From assembly GCA_964200075.2 (NCBI GenBank), contig CAXNAA020000016.1, forward strand, positions 1-36,727: DNA of 36,727 nucleotides, read 5' to 3'. Positions 219-25,888 of this stretch are shown here, piece after piece. Source of the DNA: Sphacelaria rigidula. Lineage: Eukaryota. Made by a program: the position numbers and the translations under genes. Position 1 is the stretch's first letter; each line of letters opens with the position of its first letter. The notes below the pieces were generated by a model that made no database searches, was not told where the DNA came from, and saw only the letters and a program-made list of their open reading frames with translations.

Positions 219-592
219 ATATTTTGTAGGAGGTATTTGTTGTTTCGTGTAACTATACGGTTCAAGTGGGGCTTATGTTAGGTTACGGCAGCAGAATACA
301 GTCAGGGTTGTTTAGCTGAGTTTCTTGGTTTGTTTGTGCTAACCATCGATCGGTTCAAATCGCCTTTTCCGGCTCCAAACTATCCTCCGTGTTTTCAACG
401 CGGTATCATTTGCAACCCTTCGTTTTTACGTCGGTATTCGGCTGGTACTGTAAGAGCATCGAGAAGTATGAAGGCTGTCGTCGTGGAGTACCACACTTCA
501 CGCGGCGCATTCCAACTGGTGCGTGTTGCAGATGTGCAACAGCCGGGCACCCAGGCGCATTTTGAAGCGTTATGTTCGTTTTCCCGCCGCAG

Positions 593-673
593 GTGCATTC
601 TATGTAACTTCCAGCGACATCACGATCGATGGCGATATGACTTTCGCCAACAATACTGGAGTACGTCTTGGAG
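593..673 (+). CDS. Repeat exon 1 (81 nt, phase 1-1): GAFYVTSSDITIDGDMTFANNTGVRLG
   Basis: cccgccgcAG|GTGCA...GGAG|GTgagac; length is a multiple of 3; FANN motif. Confidence 0.85.
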
Positions 674-3600
674 GTGAGACACGATGTCTTTCTAGGCGCA
701 TTCAGCATGCAGCAATGCTGTCATACGACGGCAAAGTACTATACCTGCGGAACCGTCATAGTGGAAGTTTGTGATAAACCGCTTGCAGCGACATCGTAGA
801 CATGTAGTAGTATGGAGCACCTCGTTAAATCACCAGAACGCCACGGCAACAGGCGTTGTATGGTTGAAAACCCAACCGAGTTCTTCGAGAGTGTATGTAC
901 CGCTGTAGACACATATTGTAACATGGGTGTGCCGATTGTTGTGCGTTATTGTGTGGAACTGGATCATAGTGCCGTTTCCATACATTGTACATATGGGGGG
1001 CGGGAGGGGTATGGACAATCTGGGAAGGAATCGCTGAGGACGCTTCTTGTAGACAGGAAACGGCTTCCCTGAGATCTGGCCCTTTTCAGTCGTTCATCGC
1101 GGAGTTTTGGCGGAATACGGTCCTTGGCGGAGTAGGCCTCCTCTCAAAGATTTGCTCTGTTTTCCCGTAGGATTCTTGCGCATTTTTCCGTCGTTCGTGC
1201 GCCCAGCTCTACTTTTGGCCGGTTTCCCCATTTTTCCAGTCGCCCCAAATATTTTCCTGTTGTCGAGGGACAACCCGTGTGTTGCGGAATTTCAGGGCGA
1301 CTGAAAAATCAGGAATCCGGCCTAAAGTGAAACTGGGCGTATGGAAAATGGGGGAAGTGCGCTAGAATCCCCTTGGAATGCATAGCAAATCTTTCAGAGC
1401 AGGCACTATCCGCCAAGGCCCATATTCCGCCAAAGCTCCGCGATGAAGAGCGTACAAAAGGCAGTTCTCGTAAAGTTCGTTTCCTGACTATTAGAGGCGG
1501 CCTGAGCATGTGTAATAGTACAGGTGTGGAAGATACCGCTTGGATCATTGTCATCCGTCAATCTCACATACCGAAATGCAATGCATCGAAGTCTTCTATG
1601 TTGATTCCAACGAAAGAATCTTTTGTGCAGTCCTTACGTGAGAATGCAGGAGGTTACGACTTGGGACAACCATCTTGAGTGTAGCGATCAGGGAAAACCG
1701 CAGGAACGGCAGCGGAGATTCCTACATGTTCTGGCCGCAGCCAAGCCATTCCACAGGGATATTGCGGTCCCGGCGTATTTGGCCCTCACCTGTAGTCGAA
1801 GCGACATGTTTGCCAGCTAGCTTGGATGCGGGATCGCACCCGAAAGGGAAATCGCAGGGAAAACGTTTACGAGGGCTGAAACACCTCTCCTTGATCTTTG
1901 ATGCCATGCTCGATGCTGCTTTCAGGACGACGTATCTCGTTTCGAACGCGATATCCCATTGCCTGACGCCGTTCGCCGTTTGAGTGAAGTTTAAAAGAGA
2001 GAGATTTTTTGTAGCACTCGGTGAATGGGGCGACACCGTTATCTCCCGCGCGGTCTTTCGCGGAACTCCTTACCATTCACCGCGCTTTCAACGCGGGACC
2101 TTTTGCAACCCTTCGTTTTTGTTTCGGTATTCTGCTGCCATCCGTCACTAAGGCAGACTGGGTGTGCAGGTAAGAGCATCAAGAGTCAAGAAGACTGTCT
2201 GCGTGGAGTACCCCATCTCAAACAGCGTATTCTAACTGGTGTGTATTGCAGATGTGTGACAGCGAGGCACCCAGGCGCATTTTGAAGCTGTTTGTCCGTT
2301 TCCCCGCCGCAGGTGCTGCCTATATATCTTCTAGCGACGTCACCATCGATGGCGATATGACTCTCGTCAACCACGCTGCTACATTTGGAGGTGAGACACG
2401 ATGTGTTCCAAGGCGCATTCGGCATGCAGCAATTCGGTCATCGACGGCAAAATGATGTTACTGCCGAACCGTCATCGTGGAAGTTGTAAATGAACACTTG
2501 TGGCGACATCCTAGACATGGAATAGTACGGACCACCTCATGAAACTACCAGAGCGCCACGGGACCACGCGCTGGACGGCAACAGGCTTCGTGTGGTCGAA
2601 ACCCCGCCGAGTAGTCCAAGAGTGTATGTCTCGCTGTAGACACGAAGATGTGTCGATCGTTGCGCGTTGTTGTGGGGAGTTGGATCGTAGTGCCGTTCCA
2701 TGTCTCGGCGAAACTCATGCGGGTCATCATCGCTTTGTTGGCCTCCAGTTTCCCGTCAGCACTCAATGGCATTGCACTGGTGTAGAGGAGGTACTTCGCG
2801 GTGAACGGCAATACTCGTCCGTGATGTATGAGGTACTGGTTGGTGATCACGACCTGTAGTCTGGTGCACACTTGTAGGTATCGACCTACCCTTCGTAGGT
2901 GGTATTTGTTGTTCCGTGTAGCTATAAGGTTCAAGTGGGGCGTATGTTAGGTTACGGCAGCGAAATGCAGTCAGGGTTGTTTAGCTGAGCATCTTGGTTT
3001 GTTTGTGCATGCCATCAGTTCAAGTCGCCTTTTCCGGCTCCGAACTATCCACCGTGTTTTCCACGCGGTATCAATTTGCAGCCCTTCACTTTTCTTTCGG
3101 TATCCGGCTGCCACCCGTCACCAAGACAGAACGGGTGTGTAGGCAAGAGCATCGACAGGCATGAAAACTGTCGTCGGGGAGTACCACACCTCACGCGGCG
3201 CATTCCAACTGGTGTGTGTGTTGCAGATGTGTGACAGCCCGGCACCCAGGTGTATTTTGAAGCTCTTTGTCCGTTTCCCCGCCGCAGGTGCAGTCTATGT
3301 GACTTCCAGCGACGTCACCATCGATGGCGTTATGACTGTCGCCAACAATACTGCAAGAAGTCTTGGAGGTGAGACACGATGTCTTTCTAGGCGCATTCAG
3401 CATGCAGCAATGCGGTTATTGACGGCAAAACGCTATTACTGTGAACCGTTATCGTGGAAGTTGTTGATGAACCCTTGTGGCGATATCCTAAATATATAAT
3501 AGTACGGAGCACCCCATGAAACCACCAAAACGTCACGAGACCACGCGCTGGACGGCGATAGGCTATGTAGGGTTCAAAACCCCACCGAGTAGTCCAAGAG

Positions 3601-6600
3601 TGTATGTATCGCTGTAGACATTTTTTCTTGTCGCACTTTGAGCCCCTCACCTTTCTCAGGACGAGTCCATGATCTCAAGGGATCAACCCATCTCTCCCCG
3701 GTACACGCCTTGCAGCCACTTTCTACGATAGCCCCCCCCCCCAAAACAAGTGCATGTTTTTTGGGGGCAAAACCTCCACGTAAATCGAAGTGGGAAAAGC
3801 CGATCACAACGAGCCGCTGGGAATTCCCACGCTTGGGTTCGCTTTAGCCAATGTTGCCAATATGAAGCGCTTTATGCAGCCTAAACACAAACATCAGGCG
3901 CTGTATGGCCATTTTTCTATTGACACTTTTGGGCTGGTTTTGGGGAGGGGCTATCGTAGAAAGTGTCTGCATTTTGGTCTCGAGGATCTAATCAACACTC
4001 CCGCACCGCCTCAACTCACGTCAAGCTATGACAAACGTCCCTTATTTCTTCCAATCGAGAATGCACAGGACACCTTGAGACAAACTCCACGTTTGTTCCT
4101 GGTCACTTAAAGAAGGAAAATGAGAACAACGTCTTTCCCAGAACAAGTCCGTGCCGTCGGGTAATCCGCCGCAGTTTTTACCAACAATCTCGGAACATTA
4201 TACTGGATGTCGCGCTCTTGCATCTCAACCTGTTCCCCATGAGTCAAATTGCCACATGACCGACACCCTCACTAATTTTGCACATTGGGAATTCGAACAC
4301 ATGAAAAACAAATGCACTCACGGAAATTGGTGGAACACTTCAAAGTTTGAACCCTCAAAAACCAAATGTTCCCAACGAGCACGAGTCGCATCCAAGCTAA
4401 GACCAGAAGATAGCCTGGCCTCGACTTATGATACGGATTTCATGAGAATGCCCTTTAACCCTAATGGGACACACTAAGTTAAAACTCTCGGCGGCATTTT
4501 AATCAGACCGTTCATAGCTTGACATATGACCCGTACAAGGTTCGAGACTCATACCTCAGTCGACAAAGTTGCTTAAGTTACGTGATGTTCATCGAAACAT
4601 TCCTGTGGCACCGGATACTATATGCAAAGCTGACGGTTTCGTCAGCACATCAGCATGCTGTTGAGCTATCGGGACATACTCCACTCAAATGACCTACTTA
4701 GACACCAACTCTCCAAAAAATGATGACGTATATCTATATGCTCACTGTTGTGGGAGCTTCGCGGATTATTCGCGAGCTAAAAAGCTCCCTGGTTGTCCTC
4801 GTATACTGTTACCCGAATGCAAAGCTCTTTCCTCTGCGGTTGCATGAATTTCAGTACCGCCTTCACAAAAAAGACATCCTTCACCACATCCCTCATCTCT
4901 ACATACTCAGCTTGAGTCGTAAACAACGTTACATTCTTATGAGTCCGAGAGAAAAATCCGACCACAGCCCCACAGAAAGATATTGCCCCTTCCGACACTG
5001 GACGTCGATCGTCGAGTTTTGCGTAGTCAGCATCCGCATACGCTACCAACTTGTCGCTCGAACCCCTTACATACGTAATTCCAAAACCTATTGTAGTCCT
5101 CAGGTATTCAAAACCCCTCAACACTTTCCGCCCGTCCTCTGCTGTCGGGTTCTCGTTGTGCCTGGAGGCAGCTCTCACGGCGTCGGCGATATCCGGACGA
5201 GCGTTACTAGAGAGCCACATGAGTGATCCTACCGCCTCGCAATACCTCCCCCTAAAGTCTTCTCCCTCATCAACCTTGAAAGAAAGTGAAACATACGCGG
5301 GGGTCGCTGCGGTCCTAGTGATGGAAACCCTGTCCAGAATCCGTTGGATATATGCAGTCTGTGACAACTCTAGAGTACCCCTCTCGAGGTCGTGCCTGTA
5401 CTCGCACCCCGCATACAAGACCAGTTCTCCAAGACTTTTCGTCGGAAAATGAAGGTTGAAATCTGCAGCCGACTTGTTGCACACCGCCTCATCACCCACC
5501 ACGAACATGTCATCGACGTGCACCACAATCAGAACCTTAACCTTCTCCCCGTTCATCAACCTGTAGATGCACGGGTCGACCAAACTCTGGTCCAAACCCA
5601 GAGTTTTCAGAGTTTTCCCCAGCTCACCAAACCATTCCCTAGCCGCTTGTCGAGTCCCGTACAACCTGTTCCTCAGGTGTACAAAAGTACCTGACCGTCC
5701 ACTCAGACCTGGTGGCAACCGCATGTACACTTCATCATTCAGCTCAGATTATACGAAAGCTTCCTCAACTTCAAAGTGAAAAATGGTCTTCTCCTCAGCG
5801 CAAGCTACCGTCGCAGCTACTCTGTTGATTGTTGAGGAAGGGGTAGGTGAAAACGTTGAAATATCGCCCCATCTCTTGACGATCACCCCTGAAAAACAGT
5901 CGAGCTTTCGCCTTTATCACGTAACCATGCTCGTCGGTCTTCCACTGAAAAACCCGCTTGGAATCTATTACTTTATCTCCTGCTGGCGGTGAGTCTACAA
6001 CTACCCACGTGTTTTTACGTTCCAATCCTTCCACCTGTATGTTCATTGCATCAATCCACACTCCCTTGAACTGAGAATTGTGTACATCATTTACCGTCTT
6101 CGGTGCTACCTTCATCTCATCAACAGGAACGTATGGAATAACCTCCAGCTCAGACTCCCCTGTTTTGCTTGGGTCGTCCGTGTGGCCCAGGAATGCCAGT
6201 ATCCTGTCGGCGCCCCACAAATCCTCCGTCGTTACCCACAACGCACTGTGATCGCCTTACACATGCTGTAGATCAGGAACATGGTGATGCAGTCGCTGTT
6301 CATGGCGTTCTTGCTGCAGCAGTCGTGTTTGTTGCCTCGTCCGACCCAGCGTCGGTTAAACCGAATCTAGTTGGTTCGCGGCATCTCCGCCACCGACAGA
6401 CGATGTCTCCGACGAATCACGACCGGAAGATGGTGCAGACGATGTAGGCGACGCAGGCGGCTGCTCCATTGTGTTCTCGCCGTCGTCATTATGTGGTCCC
6501 TGCTCAGGTTCCGACCGCTCATTGCCATTTCTTTCACGCTCCTCGGACACCGCATCATCCGTGATTCCCCTTCCCCACTTCGAGGTCCGACTCCCCTGAA

Positions 6601-9600
6601 ACAGAGTCCTCGGCATCACCCTCCCCGCTCTCTACATCCTGCGAAATTTCCCTACCCCGCGTAGAGAACGGGACCGCTGTTTGCGAACGTGAGGGGGATA
6701 AACGACACCAAGTGACATTGCGAATGGTGATGACATATCTACCGGTCGCCTGCACTCTCATGGAGTCACGAGGGTAGTTGTCACCAGGTCTTACGTAAAA
6801 ACACTCCTGTGCTCTGGGCATACACTTCGACGTTCTCTTGTACTTATGAAGAAAGGTGAAAGCTTAACCTGGGGTACTACACCATGGTATAGTTTATCTG
6901 GAGACTTCTTACCCAGCGTTAGCCGTGGTGGCAGAGCAATTTAATGCGTCTGCTGCCCAACGATACGATTCAGCTCACATTCTTGCCAGAACATCGTATA
7001 GTACCTCCGCCTGGATTCGTGCAGCCATAGCGGTCTGTCCAACCATAGCTATCGCACGCTCAGCCACACCGTTAAACTCAGGACTGTCTACTGGGGTGTA
7101 CTCCTGTCCAATCCCTCGTGTCCTACACAGGTCGCTGAAAGACCTAGCAATCTCTCCATCGCCGTCCGACCTTGAAGTTTCCACCACCGAGGGAACGCAC
7201 TTTGCACCCTTACTGCTCGAATGCCTTCGTAGTGGCAGACCTGTGTTTCCTCAAATACATCCAGATTTTCCGCGACAAAGTATCCCGAATTAGAAACGAA
7301 TACTTCATTCCTCCCGTACTCTCAACTAGCTTTGGTCCGGACGCATCCATGAACATGCGCTCGAGCGGTTTTTCTGCTCTAGTGTTGGTTGAAATCGTAA
7401 TGGGCTTTCGCAGCCCCTTGGCTATGGAGCACCCCTTGCACTCCTCCACCTTTCCCACCAGAGACACCCCCTGCTGTTTCGCGGTTTCCCGCAACAAGCC
7501 CTCAAGCAGGTGGCCATGAGACTGATGAAACATACTGATGTCCACCTGATCTAGGTTGATTTGCATCTCTCCAGGGGTGAGAACAGCATTAGCAGACTCA
7601 TCGTCATCAACGTTGCGATCCGTCGAGGTGGTTGATGGTGAAAATCGAGTGAATACCACGATATCATTCCTTCCCTCCTTCGTGAAAAACACTTCCCTCT
7701 CATCAGGCAAAGTAATAACAGTCCCTCTCTTGGTCACACTAATCGGCAAATCATGTTCCACGGCCACACTCTGCAGGGAAATCAAATTTACGTCTAACTC
7801 CGGGACATGTGCCACTCTGTTGGTACCAAAAATTTGTTGATCATCGTCACCAACCGTTGATACCAAGCGTTTGCCAGACCCTGCTACCGGTACTTTATGG
7901 CTGTTTGCTACGGTGACCAAGACACCCGTGCAAGGCTCGTGATCACACATTCTCTCTCTCGATGGAGTCATGTGGTATGATGACCAGCTATCCGCTATCC
8001 AAATCTCCTTGCCCCCTTCATCAGAATTGGGCAGTCATCTTGTGCACTGTCTGCTGCGGACGTGCGTTCACTAGTCTTGGTCTCCGTTGCAACGTATCCA
8101 AATTCTCCGGAATCCTCGAAATTGTCCGACGTACACATCGCGACCATCTTATGAAACCCTTCGGAGTGTCCGTTATCTCCACATCCCTCACATATACGTT
8201 CAGGGCATTCCGACATGAAATGACCAGTCTTACCACACTCGAAAGACGTTGGATTCTTCCTTCCAGTTTTTTGTGTGTTTGTTGGAATGCTGCCGCCAGT
8301 ATTTCCAGTCGCACCGCCGTTACCCTGAACCTTGCTAGTGTGCTGTCTCTGATTTTTGCGACTTATGCCTACCCCTTTTACTCTTACCCTTGGGGGTGGA
8401 CCCTTCGTTGCCTGTGTAGAGGGTATGGTTGTGGTCTGCACGAGGCGAACCACCTGTTTTGTCGAGCGACACATATTCATCTTTGACAACGGGTTGTGTT
8501 TCATCCGTTAGTTTCGACGGCTCGAAACGTAGTTTCTCTCGTACAGTGGTGTACCCAGAGGGAAGTGAATTAAAAGAGACTTGTCCACGACAATCTCTTG
8601 AGCAATCCCCAATCCCAGCGACCTAGCACGCGACTGCAGCGACCGTAATCGAATCCAGCACTCATCAGTGTCTTGACCCTTGCTGTACTTATGGTTGTTG
8701 AACTCGGTCAAAGCGCCCATCTTTGGGCTTGATGTTTTCGGAGGAAACTCTTATTCCAAAGCACGCTTTGCTATAGAAGGAGATCGCGACTCGAAACGTG
8801 TGTGTCTACCGACCCCATCCTCAACAGTGTTGAGCAACAAAACATACGCAAATCGTGCTCGTTTGATGTCGTCCGAACTCACACCCAACCCTAGTAGCTG
8901 CTGCTCATTCAAAGGATCCACACAGAGCGCAGGGTCTCTGAATAAACCCTCGCCGAATCCGTACATGAAAGCATACCGCTCAACTCCTCGCTTAAAATTC
9001 ACCCATGCATGACCCTCATTGCTGTAGAAGGGGCGAATTTGTCGAGCCTCCCATGTTCGAGAATCGACACTCAATAGTATCGACGTACCTTGGGGTGTTA
9101 CTTTGCCTTCGTCCATCAACACCCGCACTCAAAATCCGTTGCATTTGGGAATCCAATACCGGACACCCTACCCAACGCCGTCATGTTGACTTGAGTACCT
9201 GCAGCTTCTCCGGATTGAGCACCGGTCCAGCTGTTGAGCGGTGCTGCCCTTGCTCCGAAGTCCATTGGAGAAGCTTCCTGCCGTGGTGGGTCTTCTGTTC
9301 TCAAGGTTGCAGAAGCCTCTCTAGCCCTACTAGCTTGCCATTCCTTGAAACTATGGTAATCTACCGGCGAGACTGACCACTCTTGCGCGGAAACGTCCCC
9401 CTCTACTACTAAATTTCTTCTCGTTCGCTGCTCGCTTTCGGCACCGCTCATGGTAAAAGCGTACCTACTAGCCCAAGTCTATCGTAAGTACTAAACGCTA
9501 CAGTAGCGTGTCGCTATACTTCGAGCACACACTGATTCAAGCAGCACCGACTGCTCACCCAGAAAGTGGAAGGCAGCTCGTACAACGCCAGTCGTCGAGA

Positions 9601-12600
9601 TGGAAACACTTTAAGAGAGGTATGGTACAAATAGCTTCGTTATCACGTTAAATGCCACCGGCATAAGAGAGAATACACACACAGTGATCACCCAGGGGCG
9701 AGAGGTGCGGGAGTGCACCTCCTCACATCCTCCGTAAGCTATGACGAATGTCCCTTATTTCTTCCAATCGAGAACGCACAGTATACCTTAAGACAACTCT
9801 TCATTTGTTCCTGGTCGCTTTGAGAAGGAAAATGAGAACGACATATCTCCCAGAACAAGTCCTTGCCGTCGGGTAATCCGCCGCAGTTTTTACCAACAAT
9901 CTCGGAACATTATACTGGATGTCACGCTCTTGCATCTCACGCTGTTCCCGATGAGTCAAATTAGTACATGATTAATATCCAGAACGACCAATGAGGCTGG
10001 TTAGGAATGACGTGTCTGGCAACAGTGGCTTCATGTTGCTGAAAATCCACGTGTATAACCACAAGGCTATCAGGAAGTCGAAAGTTTCATCCACTCTACT
10101 TTCTGGTGCAGGTACAAGCTGTATCTCGGGTGTTGTGAGCATCAGGTAATGTACAGATGTGGCAAGCAGTAGAAGTCGTCGTGGAGAGCTTTCAACAGGA
10201 TGTGGCGACGGCCGCCCGCCACTTGTGACCTTGGATGATATTATTGTTCCCATCACCTTGCCACACAACCCTTTGTGGTCGGGATGGGCCGCGATTTCCC
10301 TCCTCGTTGCAAGCAGCATTCTCTTCGAAGGGCATCGACGTTGCGCCGCACATACAGTACAGTACGCCTCTCCGACTGCAGCAGCGGCTGCCGCTGCATA
10401 CTCCCTTACACGTTCTCGGCAGTTTTCCGCGACGGAGATCAGCTATCTTTACACAACTTGCTTGTTCCCGCCAATTACAAATGGCTTCACTGCACGCTGT
10501 ACCGCCTCAATAGAGGGATACGCAGAAGTCATGCCTGTAGCTCCGTCTCTCGTTCCTCTACGTTGCTAGATTCAGTCGCCTTCTGAACATGACCACATAT
10601 ACAGTAGGGTACATTTATTCCCGAATTTCCCCCAAGCACCCTGTGTTAGTGTAATCATTATTACTAAAGGATGGTGACCCGAAACAAAATTCGGGGGAGT
10701 GGGGGTCGGACCTATATAAAATGTAAGTAAATGATGAAAAAATTGGCAAAGCAAGCAAGCCCCGACCATCGCGACTTTCTTTTGCTTCGAATGCTTTTTG
10801 TGGGCCAGGGACAGGGTACGCACACCAACTTGGCAATGACATCACTCCCAGCGACACAGCCCCCCTCCCAGGGGTCGTTCGGATGTGGTCAATAATTTTC
10901 GCCTCGCCGTGATTGGGCAGGTGCTCCTAGACGTGTTTAGTATTATTTCACTGAAACATGGTGAACCCCTTGTTACTGAGCTCCAGTCCCAAAATGGTTT
11001 AAACCATTGCGCTGGTTTAGAGGAGGTACTTCGCGATGAAGAGCAATACTCGTCCATGATGTGTCAGGTATCGGTTGGTGCTGACGGCTTGTAGTCTGGT
11101 GCATACTTGTAGGTGAAAACTTACACTTTGTAGGTGATATTTGTTGCTCCGTGTAGTTATATGGTTCACGTGAGGCGTAGAGTAGGATGCTGCAGCGAAA
11201 TGCAGTCAAGGTTGTTTAGCTGAGCTCCTTGGTTCCTTCGTGCATGCCATCTATAGGTTCAAGTCGCCTTTCCCGAGACTAGCGGTTACGGTCGCGCAAA
11301 CCGATAAACCCCGCGGTAGAGGAAACAGAGAGGCGAGAGCGAGATCGAGGAAGCTCCCTCTGTGTTCGCTCATCGCAACATACGTTGAGTGCGTTCCTGA
11401 TTGTATGCCAAAGTCTAGCCCGCCATAGTACGTTGTACGTATGGGGGTGGGAGGGCTATGGACAATCTGGGAAGGAGTTCCGAAGACCGCTTCCTATAGC
11501 TGGGAAACGGCCTCTCTGAGAACCGGATCATTCAAGCCTTCCGCCGTTTTGGCGGAATACGGGCCTCGGCATAGTAGACCTCCTCTGAAAGATCTGCTTT
11601 GCTTTTCAGTAAGGTTTTAGCGCACTGTCCCGTCTTCCGTACGACCAGTTCTACGTTTTGCCGCATTTTGAAGCTGTGTGTCTGCTTTCCCGCCGCAGGT
11701 GGTATGATTTTAATTCACAGCAACGTCACCATCGATGGCGATATGACTCTCGCCAACAACATTGCAGGAGAGACTGGAGGTGAGACACGATTTGTTCCTA
11801 GGAACATTCAGCACGCAGCAATGTCGTCGAGGCAAAGTGGTGATATTGGCGGACCGTCATCGCGGAAGTTGTTAATGCACACTTGTGGCGATATCCTAAA
11901 TATAGAATAGTACGGAGCAGTAAGGTCGAAAGCCCCGTCGAGTCGTCCATGGGTATGTGTATCGCTGTAGACACGTATTACATAATAGCTGTGTCGATTG
12001 TTGTACGTTATTGTGAGGAATTTGATCGTAGTGCCGCTTCATGTTTCCACCAAACTCACGCTGGTCATGACCGCTGTGTCGGCCTCCAGTATCCCGTGAG
12101 CTCTGAATAGCATAGGAGCTGTGTAGAGGAGGTGTAATGCGTGACAGGACCGTGTGGTAAGGGGACCGCGTTGTAGTTCGAACCACCTCAGGGCCGACGT
12201 TTGTCAAAACCAATCGGGCCAGTCCCTGCAGGAACCACGCCCCTGACCTTAACCCCAACACTAACCCTCACCCTGACGCCTACCATAGGGATGCTGAGAT
12301 TTCGATGTGGTCCCCTAACCACGCGGTCCTCTAACGCATTATAAAGGTACTTCGCGGTAAAGGGCAATACTCGTCCATGATGTATCAGGTACTGGTTGGT
12401 GCAGGCGACCTGTAGTCTGGTGCATACTTGGAGGTATAAACCTACACTTTGTAGGTGATATTTGTTGCTCCGTGTAGCTATAAGGTCAAAGTGAGGCGTA
12501 GAGTAGGATGCTGCAGCGAAATGCAGTCAAGGTTGTTTAGCTGAGATTCTCAGTATGTATGTGCATGCCATCTATCGGTTCAAGCCGTTTTTTCCGAGAC

Positions 12601-15600
12601 TAGCGGTTACGGTCGCGCAAACCGATAAACCCCGCGGTAGAGGAAACAGAGAGGCAAAGCGAGATCGAGGAAGCTCCCTCTATGTCCGCTCATTGCAACA
12701 TACGTGAAGTGCGTTCCCGGCTGTATGCCGAGGTCTAGCCCGGGTAGGAGGGTTATGGACAATCTGGGAAGGAGTTCCTGAGGCCGCTTCTCATGGTCAG
12801 CAACAGGTATCTCTGGGAACCGGATCATTCGAATCTTTCATCGCGGAGGTTTGGCGGAATACGGGTCTTGGCGCAGGAGGCCTCCTCTGAAGGATCTGCT
12901 ATGCTTCCAATAGGATTCTGGCGCACTGTCCCGTCGGATTCCCGATTTTTCCAGTCGCCCCAAACATCTCCGAGTTGTCGAGGGAAAGCACGTGTTTTCC
13001 CGACAACTCAAACAGCTTTAGGGCGGCCGAAAATCAGGAATCCGGCCAAAAGTGAAACTGGCGTTCCGGAAATCGGGGAAGTGCGCTAGAATCCTCTTGG
13101 AATACATAGCAAATATTTCAGAGGAGGCGCTATCCGCCAAGGCCCTTCATCCACCAAAGCTCCGTGATGAAGGGCTCAAAAAAGGCAGTTCTCACGAAGT
13201 CCGTTTTCCGGCTGTTAGAAGTGGCCTGAGTATGTGTAATAGTGCAGGTGTGGAAGATACCGGTCGGACCATTGTCATCCACCAATCTCACATACCGAAG
13301 TGCAATGCATCGAAGTCTTCTATGTTGATTCCAATGATAGCATCTACCATGCAGTCCACACGCAAGAGCGCAGGAGGTCAAGACTTGAGACAAACACCTT
13401 GATTGTAGCGTTCTGTGGGAAACCGCGGGAACGGCAGCGGGCATTCTTACATGTTCGGGCCGCAGCCAACCCATTCCACAGGGATATTGCGGACTCGGCG
13501 TATTTGGCTCTCACCTATAGTCGAAGCTACATGTCTGCCAGCTAGCTTGGATGCGGGATCTGTGACGGTTTCAGAGACAACCAACTAGACTACTGACCAG
13601 TCAGCGCTGACTAGTCAGTAGTCTAGTTGGTTGTCTCTCGAACCGTCACAGATCGCACCCGAAAGGGAAATTGCGGCGGAAACGTTCACGAATGTTGGAG
13701 CACTTCTCCCTGCTCTTTGGTGCCATGCTTGATGCTGCTTTCAGGAGAGGGTTGTGCATCGTGACGACGTATCTCGATTCGAACGCGATATCCCATCCCC
13801 TGAATGATTGTACCCCCTATCGAATCATACCAGTGACGTGAGGAGGTAAAAGGGTAACTCGGTGGATGTGACTACGTTGTCCTACTAAAACAGCTCCTGT
13901 TGAGAAAGTTTGAAACCGTTCCACCCGCACCTCGGACGAGAGATGGGGTTCTAGCCATCGCTAGCCCGCTGTAAATTAAGCACAACGCCAGTCATGACGA
14001 GTGTGCCAATTCCGAACGATACGATGAAATCAATCCACCAACGGCCCAGTGTAGGTTGTAACCCGCAGCGCTGCGAAAAGAGCATATAGTGTCGACGACG
14101 GCCCGACGATCGATCGTCGCCAAAGGGAAAGGAGGGGGCGACAGATCTCCGCACATCTTGGTACTTGCTTCACGCAAGGATGGCGGGCCCTACTGAATGT
14201 AGCCACAGCATCCCCGGTGCGTGCTCAAATGAAGCAATACTGTGCAGCTCACCGCGAACGACACTATGATGGAAACGCCTCGATAGTCGCCGTTCAAGTG
14301 AAGCTCAAATCATAGAGACTTTGGGGTAGCATTCAGTGAATGGAGAGACACTGCTGTCTCCGACGCGGTGTTTCGGGGAGCCCCGAACAAATCACCGTGT
14401 ATTCAGCGCGGTATCATTTGCAATCCTTCGTTTTTGTTTCGGTGTTCTGCTACCATCCGTCACTACGACAGAACGAGTGTGTAGGTAAGAGCATCGAAAG
14501 GCAAGGACACTGTCGTCGTGGAGTGTCCCACCTCACGCGGCGTATTCTAACTGATACGTGTTGCAGATGTGTAACAACCGGGCACCCAGGCGCATTTTGA
14601 AGCTGTATGCCCGTTCCCCCGCCGCAGGTGCCATCATTGTACTCGGCAGCAACATCACGATCGACGGCGACATGACTTTCGCCGACAACGCTGCAGGAGT
14701 TAACGGAGGTGAGACACGATGTGTTCCTAGGCACATTCAGCATGCAGCAATGCGGTCATCGACGGCAAGGCTATATCACTGCCGAACCGTCATAACCAAA
14801 GTTGTTGGTGAAGACTCGTGGCGATATCCTAAAGGCAGAAAAGTATGGACCATGTCATGAAACCATCATAACGCCACGGGAACACGCGCTGGACGGCAGC
14901 AGGTAAGGTTTGAAACTCCCACCGAGCAGTCTAAGGGTATATGTATGGTTGTAGACACATGCGTGTGTCGATCGTTGTGCGTTGTTGTGGGGAATTGGAT
15001 CGTAGTGTCGTCTACTGTTTCCGCCGAATCAATGCGGGTCATCATCGGTTTCTCGGCCTCCGATATTCTGTGAGCTGTTAATAGCGTTGGACTGGGGTAG
15101 ATGAAGTGCTTCGCGGTGAAGGGCAATACTCGTCCATGACGTACCAGGTACCGGTTGGTGCAGGCGACCTGTAGTCTAGTTTATACTTGCAGGTATAAAC
15201 CTACACTTTGTAGGTGATGCATGTTGCTCCGTGTAGCTTGTAGTTAGTTCTGGCAAGGACCTCCTTGCTAACCTGGGTTCAAAGTTTACACCTGGTTCAC
15301 TTATTCACGGTTTAATTGACTTGCTTCAGTCTCTCAAATAGCATGAGTACCCTATACACTCGGTTCGAGTACCTTGCTCGTATTTTCTAATTCCAGATCA
15401 AACAAGTTACCTCCATAGGTTTGAATATGTTCCGTCTGCGACCCGCAACATGATAACGGAGTTCCAGCCAACAGTCAGCCCCTATGGTTTGCGGATGCGC
15501 CGTCAGCCATCATAGAGACGATACGTCCGCGACGTGTAAGGAGATCGACCCCCTTCTTCAGCTTCAGCGTTTTGAAATGGACACGATAGTATGAAGAACG

Positions 15601-18600
15601 GCCGGATGATTCTACTTGCAACAGGCTCGAAAAGAGACGACATGGTTCCTATATCACGGTGTGTACTACACGCGGAAGACAGCAGACTCGAACATGGAAG
15701 CACCACAGGCCCAGATGCATGGTCCACCAACGCACACTGCGGCACGCGGCAAAGGATACGAAGATGATGAACGCTGCGGCGCTCCCATTTTGGTGAAAAC
15801 AGGGAATGGAGAGGATACATGACAGAGTGCTCTCACATAAGGGGAAAACCGATATTTTGGTCCCATGCTACGGGGAGCTTCGAACGTCCTACCGTGTCTC
15901 CAGCGCGAAAATATCTGCAACCGTGTTTTTTGCACAGATGTTCCGCTGTTATCTATTCCTCAGACTGCACGGGTGTTCACTGTAGCGCATCGAAAGGCAA
16001 GCATTACCATCGTGGCGTACCTCGCCTCCGACGGAGCACATTCCGACTGTTTTGCAAAAACAAACTAGTGACAAACCAAAAAACCCGTCATCCATGCGCG
16101 TTTGAACGCTGTGTGCGGCCTTTTTTCCCGCCGCAGGTGCTCTCGTTTTATCTTCCAGCAACGTCGCCATCATGGGCTATATGACTCTCACCAACAACAC
16201 TGCAGGAGAGGATGGAGGTGAGATACAATGCACTCCTAGCACGTTGAGTATGGCGCAATGCGCTCATCGATGGCAAAGCGATAGTACTCCCGAACCGTCA
16301 TCGTAATTTGTTTTTATCACCGAAACCTCATGAGGATACAATACACTAGTTTTCATCTGAAAATATGATATTTTAGTCGTTTCTTGTGGTCGGGGATATT
16401 CGAAAGTGTATTCACTATCCCCGCTCTTTCTAGTGAACGTTTGATCCCACAGTTTGGGGACCGGGAGTGACTAGGCATCTCCTCCACATTCCAAAAAAAG
16501 ATCACATTTGGGCCCATTGTTAGATGATTCACGGGATGTCCAGTTTTCGTGAATCCTGACACTACCCAGCCCCAGAGTCTGACCCTTGAGTATTTTTGCT
16601 CGATTGAAGCAATCTCAATCGTTTCCGTGAACAAGTGATTTTTGGTTTTTCAAGTTTCACCTATATATTGCGCTGGAGCCGAAAAACTGTGTTGTGCGGA
16701 CCAGTGGCGGTCGATAACACCCCCTGATGAACAAGGTACTTCATCCATATCACCCCGACTACACCAGTTGAGGATTCTGTTCTGAGCACGATCTCCTTCT
16801 TTTCCCAATATCTGTCGACGCTACGACTTTTCAAGTGCGTAGGACGGGTACTACACGAGAAAATTCAGAAAAGTACCCAACAACGAAAATTGCTCAACGG
16901 TGCTCCGCATGGTACAGGTGGGGGTGAACCACTTCCTATCACTCTGATGAATGATTTTATGAACCCCTTCTTTGTCTCTTTACATATTGATTGCGCTGGA
17001 GCCGACAAGAAATGTGATTTGGACCAAAAACGATCGACAACACCCTGCCATTTCAGCTCGTGAGTCGTTTAATATTGAGCGCAGAGACAATTTTTGTTCC
17101 GGAATGTGGAGCGTATGCTCAGTACCTCCGGACTCCCACACGTTGGGATCAGCCGTTTGCTGGGATGAGCGATGGCACGCGAGAAAACCGTTAGAAATCG
17201 CCGACTACGAAGAATTGCACAAGTCTTCTACTTCAGATGAAAAGTACTACAGTACGCGCAGCACCTCAGTGAATCACCAGAACGTCATGGGACCGCGTGC
17301 TGAGTGGCGGCGGGCTCGCGATGCCATCGTCGAATCGACCCATCGTTGAAAACCTCCACCGAGTAGTCGAAGAGATATGTATCGTTGGACGCACGCAGGC
17401 GTGTCGGTCGTTGTGTGTTGTTGTGGCGATTTTGATCGTAGTGCCGTTTCGTGTTTCCGCCGAACGCATGCGAATCACGTTCGCTGTGTCGCGTTCCAGT
17501 ATCCTGTGAGCTCTGAAAGGGATACTGGAGCCGAGGAGGTACTTCGCGGTGAAGGGCAATACTCGTCCGTGATGTATGAGGTACGAGTTGGTGCTGACGA
17601 CCTGTAGTTTGGTGCATACTTGTAGGCATGAACCTACCCTTTGTAGGTGGTATTTGTTGCTCCGTGTAGCTATATGGTTCAATGGGGCATAGCTTGAGAA
17701 ACTGCAGCAAAACGCCGTCAGGGTTGCTGAACTCAGTTCCTTTGTGCATGCCATCGCTTCAAGTCGCCTTTTCCGAGAGCAGCGGTTGCGGTCGCGCAAA
17801 CCGGGGAACCCCGCAGTGGAGAAAACAGAGAGGCAAAGGCTATTGAAAATATGGCTGTGGGTTGAGTACCACACACAGTGTTCAAACTTTCAACTTGACG
17901 GGAACGATCGGTTCAACTCGTGAACCCAGCTCTAACAGGGGAGCTCGCAGAGGCTGCATGCACAGTGTTGGGTAAACCCTTGCTTCGTGCAAAAAAAGAA
18001 TAGAATAGATGGTTTACACTCGGCGCTTCACCTGGTCGAACACAGAATAAAATACAATAAAACGCCTGGTTTCTTATTCACGCAGAAGCGGATGACACGC
18101 TGATAGGCTTGTTGAGTAGATAAAAATAGAGGGTGAACACAAGATGCTCTCTCCGAAAAGTGTCCTATCTCCACAAAATATTTTGAATCATGAACGGTAC
18201 GGCTCAAGTTATACAACCATGAACTGTACATCCACCAAATCTTGATGCTACAGATTCTTCCGCTCAAGCTCTTCGCTATTCGGGCACTGATAGTTCAATC
18301 TGTCCATTCATCCTCATATACGGCTAAACCCGTTCGTACTGCCCGTATTAGGTAATAGGCTGGACAATAGACGGCATCTATTGCAATAGCAATAGAATCT
18401 GCTGCAGGAAATGCCAATATTGTCGCCCATAATGGCCATCAATCGGCAAGTTTCTCCTTCTATTGTCGTCGGCAATGTCTATCGATATATCTGTTTCTCA
18501 CACTCTTGTCCGGGCAGCAGTCTGTTGTGGCGATGGATAGTTTTTCGAATCTACTGATGACGGCGATGACTCTCGATAGACGGCGTGCCAAATCTATTGA

Positions 18601-24600: not shown

Positions 24601-25855
24601 GATATCATTGGGCAACGAAAAAGGACCACCACTTTTCAGCTTTCGTGAACAAACTAGCTCACGTCGTGGTTCACGTGTTTTTAACGTGCCCGTGCGGCAG
24701 CTTCTCCTAGTCTAGCCCATAAGACACACTTAACGCAAAATTCGTCCATGTCTACGACTGAGATAACTATGCTAGTACTGGTTGTCACATGCAGACAATC
24801 AGATGACCTCCTCGAACTGGCGTCGTGAACGTGTCGACAGCACCTGGTCGAAACGGCTACTGCCACCCGAACAGCCTTTCGAAGAAATTAGCATTTTTTC
24901 GTGCTACGCCGTATTTTGTTCTTGCTATCTACTCGCTCTTCAAAAGCTGACGGGAACATCGCGCTCATTTATTTGATTGTTGCTGTTGATGCCCATGATT
25001 ACTTTGACTCGTCTGGCAGGTGCACTCCATGTTACACACGACTCAGAAGTGGTCATGGCCAGCGTCGGCATATTGTTCGTGGACAACTCCGCAGAAAGAA
25101 ACGGAGGTAAGAGCAGCAAAGCGGCTAGTGTAGAAGAGAACCGTTGGGGATCCGCCCCCTTTATTATGGAGGTATGGTGCCTTCGAGCGTGGTAAGCTGA
25201 TTTGAACGTACAAGCGGTATACGTTTTTGCTTTTTTTTCCCGCCAGGCAGTGCTTGAACGAATCCCACAGCAGCCGATCAAGCGAGGAAACAAACAATTC
25301 CCCATAATATCGATCAAGACTGCGAACGACTCATCCTACGGAACCGGCGTACGTTCGCGAACCAGTTGCACGCTTGCGGCTACGGTCCTGCGCGGCAATC
25401 TAACTGGGCACCGTTTTGGATGCCTGTCGGCCCTTGCGTTTTCCTCCTTGAGACTTTGCGGTTGTTTTCCCCATCCTGTTCGTGTCGCCCGCCCGTCGAC
25501 GCAGGAGCTGTGTCAGTTGAAGACGACTCTTCTTTGACAATGAAAGGCCCGATAACATTTGTGGACAACAGAGCACAGGAAAATGGAGGTGAAGATCTAG
25601 AGTGGCTGCCGTACGGCCGGTAGAGTCGACGGGCCTCATGGTTAAACAGGTACCCGTACTTGCCTCATATTTTCACCGCGTCTAGACTGCAAGTGTCTCT
25701 TTGGCACAGAACCAAGGGGGTTGTCACGAATCCTTGCTCGTCTCGAAGCCCTGTGCTTGAGTCCCGGCAACGGAGAGGGGCCACGGAGTGGTATTCATAA
25801 CACACTGCCCCAAACTACTATGCCAAGGGTTGTCAAACACAAACACACACACACA

Positions 25856-25888
<33 letters not shown>

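What the first reader, a model, noticed from the sequence alone, without database searches (positions are those of the whole stretch)
593..25588. Receptor ectodomain built from one-repeat-per-exon symmetric cassettes: candidate diversifying (immune-like) receptor system
Seen: eight 78-87 nt exons are all phase 1-1 and all multiples of 3. Each splits a Gly codon of the GGA motif and encodes one GGA..FxxN repeat. Six sit in a duplicated exon+intron cassette. Any subset could be skipped, duplicated or swapped without a frameshift. Established: GGA[ILV]/FxxN repeats form beta-helix rungs in Chlamydia Pmp adhesins, and one-repeat-per-exon shuffling has been described for Ectocarpus LRR-ROCO and NB-ARC-TPR candidate pathogen receptors. 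Inference: this is an analogous modular system using a beta-helix scaffold on a surface-exposed multi-pass membrane protein, generating variants by copy-number change, exon exchange or alternative splicing. I cannot confirm whether it has been described for this family.
Basis: partly seen in the sequence, partly recalled or inferred. Interest (0 to 1): 0.88.

Follow-up and report, generated by a model that had tools for sequence, protein, structure and literature searches.

The report
One-rung-per-exon beta-helix membrane protein
A brown-alga gene builds the outer part of a rod-like surface domain from short, duplicated, frame-neutral exons that are really spliced into its RNA, but nothing found here shows that this produces an immune-style variable receptor.

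Summary
The window is a 36.7-kb contig of the brown alga Sphacelaria rigidula. It carries eight 78-87 nt exons, all AG|G...G|GT and all phase 1-1. Each encodes one GGA..FxxN rung. Six of them sit in duplicated exon+intron units.

RNA-like contigs join 11779>14628, 25106>25505 and 25588>30783. The exons are therefore spliced onto the downstream gene, whose public model is 'partial' and starts only at 30782. All 16 exons joined give a 967-aa open frame that is colinear with the orthologues.

The protein has a PMP-type beta-helix ectodomain, a Cys-rich stalk and a multi-pass C-terminal domain distantly like Pfam PF06011 (TRP-like).

Rung number differs between genera, and the distal rungs cluster by lineage. 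That fits tandem exon duplication.

The immune-like 'diversifying system' reading is not supported:
- Three close Ectocarpus species have identical rung number and order.
- Their repeats diverge no faster than the membrane domain.
- No pseudo-exons or reversed exons lie in the introns.
- No skipped-exon junction appeared among those listed (depth only 2-3x).

dN/dS of about 2 at family-variable positions is suggestive but underpowered. Verdict: an ordinary mechanism in a family where it has not been described. Structure prediction could not be completed.

The parts
593..673 (+). Cassette exon 1: 81 nt, phase 1-1, one PMP-type rung (GAFYVTSSDITIDGDMTFANNTGVRLG)
   Evidence: Not tested with RNA because it lay outside the laid stretch.
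2313..2390 (+). Cassette exon 2: 78 nt, phase 1-1, one rung, one codon shorter than the others
   Evidence: Not tested with RNA.
3288..3368 (+). Cassette exon 3: 81 nt, phase 1-1, one rung
   Evidence: Not tested with RNA.
4003..9962 (-). Degenerate Copia-type LTR retrotransposon inside the intron between exons 3 and 4. LTRs are about 4003-4250 and 9715-9962, 88.8% identical.
   Evidence: RVT_2 E 1.6e-19, Pol_BBD E 6.9e-13, weak zf-CCHC. Its ORFs lie in several frames.
11699..11779 (+). Cassette exon 4: 81 nt, phase 1-1, one rung
   Evidence: Spliced to 14628 in RNA-like contigs: X10 record 9 and X9 record 22.
14628..14708 (+). Cassette exon 5: 81 nt, phase 1-1, one rung
   Evidence: (matches P0002 157-189, E 1.5e-7)
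16137..16217 (+). Cassette exon 6: 81 nt, phase 1-1, one rung. It is the most diverged cassette, with donor GTGAGATACAAT.
   Evidence: RNA support is by inference only: the unplaced last 34 nt of X9 record 22 match the bin depth 0.16 = 3.2 x 34/667.
25020..25106 (+). Single-rung exon 7: 87 nt, phase 1-1. Not part of the cassette family.
   Evidence: Spliced to 25505 in X6 record 16.
25505..25588 (+). Single-rung exon 8: 84 nt, phase 1-1. It is the positional orthologue of the '...ISGP..F..N.AQ.NG' rung of other species.
   Evidence: Spliced to 30783 in X10 record 14.
30783..30944 (+). Two-rung exon: 162 nt, phase 1-1. It is the first exon of the public partial gene model.
   Evidence: RNA-like contig X6 record 21 lies within it.
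31376..31552 (+). Exon: 177 nt, phase 1-1, last regular rungs
32116..34940 (+). Five exons (32116-32336, 32859-32972, 33246-33426, 33743-33829, 34738-34940). They encode the last irregular rungs, the Cys-rich stalk and the first membrane helix.
35190..36296 (+). Last exon: multi-pass membrane domain, 368 codons to the stop. The public model stops 31 codons earlier.
223..3620 (+). First block of duplicated exon+intron units (three cassettes)
11005..17838 (+). Second block of duplicated exon+intron units (three cassettes plus exon-less intron fragments). It is colinear with 556-3036 as a two-exon block.

Best explanation
The window is the 3' part of one Sphacelaria rigidula gene; the 5' end lies off the contig. 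The gene encodes a member of a large protist family of surface proteins.

Domain order:
- a right-handed beta-helix ectodomain built of 26-30-residue PMP-type rungs (GGA..FxxN);
- a Cys-rich stalk;
- a C-terminal domain of about 9-10 helices, distantly related to Pfam PF06011 (the TRP-like / Flc type).

The membrane-distal rungs are each encoded by one phase 1-1 exon that splits the Gly codon of the GGA motif. Six of these exons arose by repeated tandem duplication of an exon+intron unit, including one two-exon block. I infer unequal crossing-over between the repeat-rich introns as the cause. Because the unit carries its own intron, each duplication adds one in-frame rung and one more intron.

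The exons behave as ordinary constitutive exons of the gene. Variation in rung number arises over evolutionary time, between genera and between deep Ectocarpus lineages. Nothing shows that it arises as a standing or somatic repertoire.

After duplication the surface positions of the rungs changed quickly, while the structural positions stayed conserved.

Likely function (inference): a cell-surface or cell-wall ligand or adhesion sensor coupled to a channel-like membrane domain.

Shown: exon anatomy, duplication, splicing of 4-5 of the 8 exons, colinearity with orthologues, domain families. Inferred: the crossing-over mechanism, topology, function.
For: Identity of the locus. The annotated protein P0001 is 100% identical to the window, comes from a contig of 36727 bases and is named Sphacelaria rigidula, partial.

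Exon anatomy. Units of 180-960 nt including introns are duplicated at 74-84% identity. The block 556-3036 is colinear with 11662-15238.

Splicing. RNA-like contigs join 11777|14626 (X10 record 9, X9 record 22), 25104|25503 (X6 record 16) and 25586|30781 (X10 record 14). A 2-nt 'AG' ambiguity places the true junctions at the GT-AG boundaries. Intron bins 13651-14317, 14985-15651, 25657-26323 and 28992-30325 have depth 0 in those three runs, against 67-94 in the DNA run X1.

Gene model. All 16 exons joined in a script give 967 codons and one terminal stop. The product aligns in single HSPs with five orthologues: 58.6% with P0002, 62.4% with P0049, 57.2% with P0005, 53.4% with P0008 and 55.2% with P0007, over 921-988 columns.

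Domains.
- Chlam_PMP scores 25.1 bits against a cut-off of 20.6 on P0001, and is found on 27 of 30 relatives. Beta_helix is found on 5 of 30 (best 4e-12) and DUF7630 on 17 of 30, weakly.
- Atlas look-alikes of the ectodomain are Chlam_PMP / Beta_helix clusters, score 0.94.
- Hydropathy shows about 9-10 hydrophobic segments.
- PF06011 hits 5 of 10 sampled homologues of the membrane domain (E 6e-8 to 2e-4, one above the cut-off). It also hits P0019 and L007 weakly, and appears in Atlas clusters at 12-25% of members.

Lineage-specific duplication.
- Rung counts are 8, 11, 9, 9 and 23 in five orthologues.
- Distal rungs are most similar within one protein (window 0.62-0.74; P0007 0.77-0.85; P0008 up to 0.85). 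Exon 8 instead matches its positional orthologues.
- Rung-sized indels of 29, 29, 32, 41 and 44 aa separate P0049 from P0005.

Constraint. Variability among the six cassettes tracks family-wide column entropy (Spearman 0.51, p 0.007). dN/dS is 0.67 in family-conserved columns and 1.97 in family-variable columns.

The abstracts of PMC11166332 and PMC10715098 (search listing) state that Pmp GGA/FxxN repeats form beta-helix coils.
Against: - No structure model was obtained. The solenoid fold therefore rests on Pfam families and the literature.
- Exons 593, 2313 and 3288, and the junction 16217>25020, have no RNA evidence.
- The RNA label of runs X6, X9 and X10 is the tool's guess. All three come from one study and depth is 2-3x.
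- Overall the cassette exons are no better conserved than their introns. Exon identity is 0.72-0.86 against intron 0.77-0.87, and is lower in 7 of 9 between-block HSPs. Pairwise dN/dS is 0.53-8.8, above 1 in 9 of 15 pairs. Constraint is therefore weak, or selection is partly positive.
- A rung conserved in three orthologues ('W.GN') is absent from the window. An exon may therefore be missing from my model.
- The PF06011 link is below the cut-off for the window's own protein.
- Rung counts come from predicted proteins. This very gene's public model misses eight exons, so such counts can be wrong.
Confidence: 0.72

Rival explanations
1. The cassettes are a diversity-generating, immune-like receptor system. 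Copy-number change, exon exchange and alternative splicing produce many ectodomain variants that recognise variable (pathogen) ligands, as proposed for the Ectocarpus LRR-ROCO and NB-ARC-TPR genes.
For: - The exons are frame-neutral with one rung each.
- Nonsynonymous change exceeds synonymous change at family-variable rung positions: dN/dS 1.97, dN 0.57. That dN is above the intron distance implied by 0.77-0.87 identity.
- 9 of 15 exon pairs have dN/dS above 1.
- Two gene products of one Ectocarpus species, P0015 and P0061, are 99.7% identical and differ internally by exactly one 27-residue rung.
- Each species has several paralogues.
- The ectodomain diverges much faster than the membrane domain between metagenome paralogues L002 and L003.
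Against: - Orthologues of Ectocarpus sp. 12, 13 and 6 have the same rungs in the same order, with no rung indel in 1016 aligned residues.
- Differences are 7-18 of 317 in the distal repeats and 10-21 of 392 in the membrane domain. The repeat region was not the most diverged part in three further close pairs, apart from one N-terminal 100-residue window.
- No inactivated or reverse-strand rung exons lie in the introns.
- No near-identical rung occurs in other retrieved proteins, including a Sphacelaria paralogue.
- The spliced contigs listed join neighbours only.
- No NB-ARC, ROC-COR, kinase or TIR domain is present.
- Intronless homologues also vary in rung number (26, 20 and 9 GGA motifs), so exon modularity is not needed for that.
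- The dN/dS figures rest on 26 codons in six non-independent copies.
Confidence: 0.12
2. The symmetric exons serve regulated alternative splicing. Exon skipping gives ectodomains of different length, tuning the reach or stiffness of the beta-helix, without any immune role.
For: - Every subset of the ten consecutive 1-1 exons can be skipped in frame.
- The one-rung difference between P0015 and P0061 could reflect a skipped exon in one gene model.
- The first 40-60 nt of the flanking introns are the best conserved part of the cassettes: 0.85-0.93 in some pairs.
Against: - No skipping junction appeared among the contig pieces listed. All three junction types join adjacent exons, though depth is only 2-3x and 62 joints were not shown.
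- No conserved inverted repeats lie in the cassette introns that could act as competing RNA structures.
Confidence: 0.08
3. The distal cassettes are drifting, dispensable rungs. The three at 593-3368, upstream of the retroelement insertion, may no longer be used. On this view the exons evolve neutrally and the pattern has no function.
For: - Exon identity is about equal to or below intron identity.
- The median pairwise dN/dS, read from the 15 values, is about 1.3.
- A 6-kb retroelement sits in the intron 3368>11699.
- There is no RNA evidence for the first three exons.
Against: - All six cassette exons keep open frames, AG/GT sites and the invariant structural residues S, I, G, M, T and G.
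- Variability follows the family-wide conservation profile (Spearman 0.51, p 0.007), and conserved columns have dN/dS 0.67.
- Cassettes 4 and 5 are in spliced RNA.
- The full chain is colinear with orthologues.
Confidence: 0.08

Closest known systems
Exon-shuffled LRR-ROCO and NB-ARC-TPR candidate pathogen receptors of brown algae (Zambounis et al. 2012, PMC3341825: passages and section 17 read; PMC11378527: passages read)
   Same: One structural repeat per short symmetric exon. Tandem duplication of exons. Lineage-specific expansion. dN/dS above 1 at variable positions, though only weakly shown here.
   Different: - Repeat type and size: a 26-30-residue beta-helix rung in 78-87 nt, against a 24-residue LRR in 72 nt.
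- Phase 1-1 here; phase 2 is reported for ROCO LRR exons (PMC11378527).
- An extracellular domain of a multi-pass membrane protein, against cytosolic GTPase or NB-ARC proteins.
- No intronic inactivated or reversed repeat exons.
- No rung-level variation among three close Ectocarpus species.
[quoted passage not shown] This family is not named there; the paper's supplementary table 2 could not be seen.
Chlamydial polymorphic membrane proteins (Pmp autotransporter adhesins; abstracts of PMC11166332, PMC10715098 and PMC2997323 in a search listing)
   Same: GGA[ILV] and FxxN motifs, recurring every 26-30 residues here. Pfam Chlam_PMP and TIGR01376 match the window's protein and its orthologues. 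The repeats form beta-helix coils according to those abstracts.
   Different: Those are bacterial, intronless passenger domains followed by an autotransporter beta-barrel. Here the gene is eukaryotic and intron-rich, with a Cys-rich stalk and an alpha-helical multi-pass C-terminus. No autotransporter family was hit.
Fungal PF06011 'TRP-like' membrane proteins (Flc1 / TrpR type; abstracts of PMC9600462 and PMC8618638 in a search listing)
   Same: An N-terminal ectodomain followed by a C-terminal domain of many helices. PF06011 is the only membrane-domain family that recurs among homologues: 5 of 10 sampled and Atlas clusters at 12-25%.
   Different: The window's own protein does not reach any PF06011 threshold. 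The ectodomain is of another kind. No fold comparison could be made, and no solved structure is related by sequence.
Intronless homologues in marine metagenomes (L001-L004, L007)
   Same: The same order of signal peptide, N-terminal domain, PMP rungs, Cys-rich stalk and membrane domain. The membrane domain is 46% identical in L001-L004 and 34% in L007.
   Different: The whole protein is one open frame of 1253-1391 aa without introns. The one-rung-per-exon layout is therefore a feature of the brown-algal gene and not of the family.
Pmp-like surface proteins of trichomonads (PMC9203502, passages read)
   Same: Eukaryotic proteins carrying PF02415 repeats, regarded as surface adhesion factors.
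   Different: The relation to the membrane domain found here was not tested, and their exon structure was not examined.

Membership tests
PMP repeat (Pfam PF02415 Chlam_PMP / NCBIfam TIGR01376) | Recurring GGA[ILV] and FxxN motifs about 20 residues apart | tested here: met
   All eight exon peptides read G[AG]x...[FLV]x[ND]N...G, and the GGA motif is rebuilt across each junction.
PMP repeat (Pfam PF02415 Chlam_PMP / NCBIfam TIGR01376) | Profile score above the curated cut-off | tested here: met
   P0001, the window's annotated part, scores 25.1 against 20.6 (PF02415) and 15.5 against 15 (TIGR01376). Single-exon peptides alone gave no hit: 2 of 2 and 4 of 4, because the models span the exon junction. 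The eight rungs align colinearly with PMP-positive orthologues.
Chlamydial Pmp autotransporters | C-terminal autotransporter beta-barrel; bacterial outer-membrane protein | tested here: not met
   No autotransporter family was found on 5 proteins or 30 proteins. The C-terminus has about 9-10 hydrophobic helices. The gene is eukaryotic, with 15 GT-AG introns.
Brown-algal exon-shuffled candidate immune receptors (ROCO / NB-ARC-TPR type) | One repeat per symmetric exon of near-constant length | tested here: met
   Eight exons of 78-87 nt, then exons of 162 and 177 nt, all phase 1-1.
Brown-algal exon-shuffled candidate immune receptors (ROCO / NB-ARC-TPR type) | Extra inactivated or reverse-strand repeat exons in the introns | tested here: not met
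   nhmmer --max found only the six cassettes plus exons 7 and 8. Minus-strand hits have E of 0.59 or more. Inverted self-matches are intronic only.
Brown-algal exon-shuffled candidate immune receptors (ROCO / NB-ARC-TPR type) | Positive selection at solvent-exposed repeat positions | tested here: inconclusive
   dN/dS is 1.97 in family-variable columns and 0.67 in conserved columns, using an a-priori partition over 26 codons in six copies. The exon is significantly more diverged than its flanks in 2 of 15 pairs, uncorrected, and in 1 of 9 HSPs.
Brown-algal exon-shuffled candidate immune receptors (ROCO / NB-ARC-TPR type) | Repeat number and order vary between close relatives | tested here: inconclusive
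   No rung indel among orthologues of three Ectocarpus species. One 27-residue indel between P0015 and P0061 of one species, which may be real or an annotation difference. Rung-sized indels at 60% identity. Only predicted proteins were compared, not DNA.
Brown-algal exon-shuffled candidate immune receptors (ROCO / NB-ARC-TPR type) | NB-ARC or ROC-COR signalling module | tested here: not met
   No such family was found.
Pfam PF06011 TRP-like membrane domain | Profile score above the cut-off (28.5 bits) | tested here: inconclusive
   The window's membrane domain gave no hit. P0019 scores 21.3. PF06011 hits 1 of 30 relatives at E 0.044. It hits 5 of 10 more distant homologues, with only P0203 above the cut-off at 32.3. 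L007 scores 18.7.
Right-handed parallel beta-helix fold | Rungs stack as a solenoid in a structure model | not testable with these tools
Indirect support: PF13229 on 5 of 30 relatives and on P0205.

The most novel reading that the evidence does not exclude
Brown algae hold a third class of exon-modular recognition domain besides LRR and TPR: PMP-type beta-helix rungs. Their surface residues are driven apart by positive selection after each exon duplication. The rungs are mounted directly on a TRP-like channel domain, so that binding of a variable extracellular ligand (a microbe or a cell-wall fragment) would gate ion flux. This would amount to a 'pattern-recognition channel'.
Probability: 0.1. 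Interest if true: 0.65.

Novelty: new member of a known kind. Interest (0 to 1): 0.35.

Why it matters
1. It corrects a public gene model. Eight real exons, about 218 codons, lie upstream of a gene annotated as partial, and spliced RNA supports them.

2. It adds a third repeat type, and an extracellular one, to the brown-algal examples of one-repeat-per-exon expansion. Zambounis et al. 2012 judged exon shuffling in Ectocarpus to be essentially restricted to LRR and TPR loci.

3. It flags a large, uncharacterised protist family. The membrane domain has 7680 cluster representatives at E up to 1e-3. The family couples a beta-helix ectodomain to a TRP-like membrane domain, which makes it a plausible surface or cell-wall sensor worth testing.

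4. It does not yet give evidence for an adaptive, repertoire-generating system.

Tried and rejected
- Own genome: none is held for this window. A genome-wide search for the cassette flanks was therefore impossible.
- Sequencing runs: no RNA holder listed. Three runs guessed to be RNA (word share 0.04-0.06) were laid together with one DNA run.
- No cover or no listed contig for:
  - the junction 16217>25020;
  - exon 16137 directly;
  - the five letters upstream of exon 7 in X6 record 16.
- Exons 593-3368 lay outside the single 20-kb stretch allowed.
- 62 joints were not shown, so absence of exon skipping is not established.
- Structure: the job on alignment A2 was polled up to and had not finished. 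No fold search could be run.
- PDB by sequence: there is no relative of the membrane domain. The only hit is weak, to Rhombotarget A in the rung region (E 0.0036).
- Rfam: 0 matches. tRNAs: 0.
- Conserved inverted repeats in two cassette introns (docking-site idea): none shared.
- A 'W.GN' rung exon: no W.[GDN]N in any + frame.
- Pfam on nine other ORFs in the window: one weak zinc-knuckle hit on a retroelement ORF, none on the other eight.
- Metagenome scans:
  - the 30-sequence alignment was too loose;
  - the single protein found nothing;
  - a closer alignment gave 44 loci.
- The post-hoc core/edge dN/dS split was set aside as circular and replaced by the a-priori split.
- Literature: searches, and a term search inside the Phaeoexplorer preprint, found no description of this family's exon structure in brown algae. 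Supplementary tables of PMC3341825 and of the preprint could not be seen and may list it.

Full report
WHAT THE WINDOW IS

A search with the long 3' open frame (35136-36296) returned a 718-aa protein that is 100% identical. It comes from a contig of exactly 36727 bases and is named 'unnamed protein product, partial [Sphacelaria rigidula]'. The same search returned dozens of brown-algal relatives of 700-2000 aa, most of them carrying Pfam PF02415. The window is therefore a contig of a brown alga.

The public model starts in phase 1 at 30782, at '..GAIAVYAS'. No whole genome is held for the window.

THE OBSERVATION

| Exon | Coordinates | Length (nt) |
|---|---|---|
| 1 | 593-673 | 81 |
| 2 | 2313-2390 | 78 |
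| 3 | 3288-3368 | 81 |
| 4 | 11699-11779 | 81 |
| 5 | 14628-14708 | 81 |
| 6 | 16137-16217 | 81 |
| 7 | 25020-25106 | 87 |
| 8 | 25505-25588 | 84 |

- All have AG before and GT after.
- All begin with G[T/A] and end with G, so every junction rebuilds a Gly codon of the GGA motif.
- All are phase 1-1.

The two flank motifs are far above chance for the acceptor side and moderately so for the donor side:
- Acceptor: 10 matches against 1.84 expected; 0 of 100 shuffles reached 10.
- Donor: 8 matches against 3.49 expected; 3 of 100 shuffles reached 8.
- The six exact acceptor matches, and the five exact plus one 2-mismatch donor matches, are the ones that abut the six cassette exons.

Self-comparison shows that whole exon+intron units are duplicated: 180-960 nt at 74-84% identity over 223-3620 and 11005-17838. 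The stretch 556-3036 is colinear with 11662-15238, which indicates duplication of a two-exon block.

A profile of the six exons finds no further copy, intact or decayed, on either strand.

The next two exons, 30783-30944 (two rungs) and 31376-31552, are also phase 1-1. That makes ten consecutive symmetric exons.

ARE THE EXONS REAL?

One call was allowed for laying public runs, and I laid 11650-31649. Three runs that the tool guesses to be RNA (one study, depth 2-3x) hold contigs that join:
- 11777|14626 (two runs);
- 25104|25503;
- 25586|30781.

These are the predicted junctions once the shared AG is allowed for. The same runs have depth 0 in several intron bins where the DNA run has 67-94.

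The unplaced last 34 letters of one contig match the small depth seen over exon 16137. This is my inference.

So exons 4, 5, 7 and 8, and probably exon 6, are spliced in order and onto the annotated gene. Exons 1-3 and the junction 16217>25020 remain untested.

Joined in a script, the 16 exons give 967 codons and one terminal stop. The product aligns with five orthologues in single colinear matches of 53-62% identity over 921-988 columns. Those orthologues extend 160-550 residues further at the N-terminus and start with signal-peptide-like sequences (read by eye). The 5' end of the gene therefore lies off the contig.

One rung that three orthologues share ('W.GN') is absent from the window.

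WHAT THE PROTEIN IS

Rungs:
- Chlam_PMP is above its cut-off on the window's protein and is found on 27 of 30 relatives.
- Beta_helix (PF13229) is found on 5 of 30.
- A Cys-rich DUF7630-like stretch is found weakly on 17 of 30.
- TIGR01376 agrees.
- Atlas look-alikes of an orthologue's ectodomain are Chlam_PMP / Beta_helix clusters.
- Published abstracts state that the GGA/FxxN repeats of chlamydial Pmps are coils of a beta-helix.

Glycosylation sites: five of the eight exon peptides carry an N-x-[ST] sequon (read). This fits an extracellular location, which is an inference.

C-terminal domain:
- It has about 9-10 hydrophobic segments.
- It belongs to a very large family: 7680 representatives at E up to 1e-3.
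- It has no solved relative by sequence.
- Its only recurring annotation is Pfam PF06011 'TRP', found on 5 of 10 sampled homologues with one above the cut-off. Weak hits also appear, and Atlas clusters carry it at 12-25% of members.

I could not obtain a structure model.

HOW THE CASSETTES AROSE AND EVOLVE

Rung counts in five orthologues are 8, 11, 9, 9 and 23. These rest on predicted proteins, and this gene shows such models can miss exons.

- Distal rungs are most similar to other rungs of the same protein.
- The membrane-proximal rung (exon 8) groups with its positional orthologues.
- Exons 1-3 form one group (support 94/95), and exons 4 and 6 form another (90/77).

This is the pattern expected from lineage-specific tandem duplication at the distal end.

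Homologues in marine metagenomes have the same domain order in one intronless open frame, with 26, 20 or 9 GGA motifs. The exon layout is therefore not a property of the family. It follows from duplicating a unit that contains an intron.

The introns hold high-copy repeats (DNA depth up to 236,000 against about 70 for unique sequence) and a degenerate Copia-type element. These could serve as substrates for unequal exchange, which is an inference.

IS IT A DIVERSIFYING SYSTEM?

For:
- Pairwise dN/dS among the six cassette exons is 0.53-8.8, above 1 in 9 of 15 pairs.
- With columns split beforehand by conservation in 135 rungs of other proteins, dN/dS is 1.97 in variable columns and 0.67 in conserved columns. 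Cassette variability follows the family profile (Spearman 0.51, p 0.007).
- Exons are slightly less conserved than their flanks. This is significant in only 2 of 15 pairs and 1 of 9 comparisons, uncorrected.
- One pair of gene products from a single Ectocarpus species differs by exactly one 27-residue rung at 99.7% identity.

Against:
- Orthologues from three Ectocarpus species (95-98% identical) have no rung-level indel.
- Differences in those orthologues: 7-18 of 317 in the repeats, 10-21 of 392 in the membrane domain.
- Three more close pairs show the same, except one N-terminal 100-residue window.
- There are no pseudo-exons or reversed exons.
- No rung is shared with paralogues: best identity 0.48-0.67 of 158 rungs.
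- There are no conserved intronic inverted repeats.
- No skipping junction appeared among the contigs listed.
- There is no immune signalling domain.

The data fit rungs that diverged after old duplications. The cassette units are 74-84% identical, and the LTRs of the inserted retroelement are 88.8% identical. An ongoing repertoire mechanism is not indicated.

COMPARISON WITH WHAT IS KNOWN

The closest system is the one-LRR-per-exon ROCO and NB-ARC-TPR genes of brown algae. [quoted passage not shown] PMC11378527 gives 72-bp phase 2 LRR exons.

The present gene shares the modular exon logic. It differs in repeat type, phase, cellular location and signalling partner, and it lacks intronic spare exons.

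It is not a chlamydial Pmp autotransporter, because no beta-barrel is present. Membership of PF06011 is unproven.

Four literature searches and a term search in the Phaeoexplorer preprint found no account of this family's exon structure.

VERDICT

This is a new member of a known kind of gene architecture, of moderate interest.

Noticed in passing
window 4003-9962 (- strand): Degenerate Copia-type LTR retrotransposon inside the intron between exons 3 and 4. RVT_2, Pol_BBD and a weak zinc knuckle lie in different frames. The LTRs are 88.8% identical. Two of the 'cassette flank' motif hits (4165, 9877) are in its LTRs.
   Followed up: partly
window 26324-28991, also 11650-12316, 12984-13650, 19654-20987: Intron segments with very high summed depth in the DNA run (about 52,000-236,000 against about 70 for unique sequence) and in the RNA-like runs (up to 3358 in 28325-28991). 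They are high-copy, apparently transcribed repeats of unknown type. There is no Rfam match, and one ORF tested within 26324-28991 (28879-29304) gave no Pfam match.
   Followed up: partly
window 36198-36296: The public protein model ends at '...RFAQV'. The open frame runs 31 codons further to a stop at 36296, and that tail resembles the orthologues' C-termini ('EPQWS', '..TPG'). The 3' end of the model may also be wrong.
   Followed up: partly
window 16218-25019: An 8.8-kb intron. A rung conserved in three orthologues ('W.GN') has no counterpart in the window. Small RNA-like depth (0.1-2.7) in bins 21655-24322 is unexplained.
   Followed up: partly
proteins P0015 and P0061 (one Ectocarpus species): The two are 99.7% identical over 987 residues, apart from one missing 27-residue rung (GGAINAY...TAEE) whose ends fall at the GGA Gly. 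This is either an exon-level polymorphism or an annotation difference.
   Followed up: no
L001-L004, L007 (metagenome contigs): Intronless genes of 1253-1391 aa with the same PMP-rung, Cys-rich and membrane-domain order. L002 and L003 are 60% identical overall, with a far better conserved membrane domain and a rung-sized gap.
   Followed up: partly
window 19277-19500; 25837-25891; 23-120: A 43-bp tandem repeat (5.2 copies), an (AC)27 microsatellite, and a 40-bp tandem repeat at the very start of the contig, which may be why the assembly breaks there.
   Followed up: no
proteins P0024, P0025, P0031: Some relatives carry a Notch LNR domain (PF00066) ahead of the PMP rungs. The family therefore combines its membrane domain with more than one kind of ectodomain module.
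   Followed up: no
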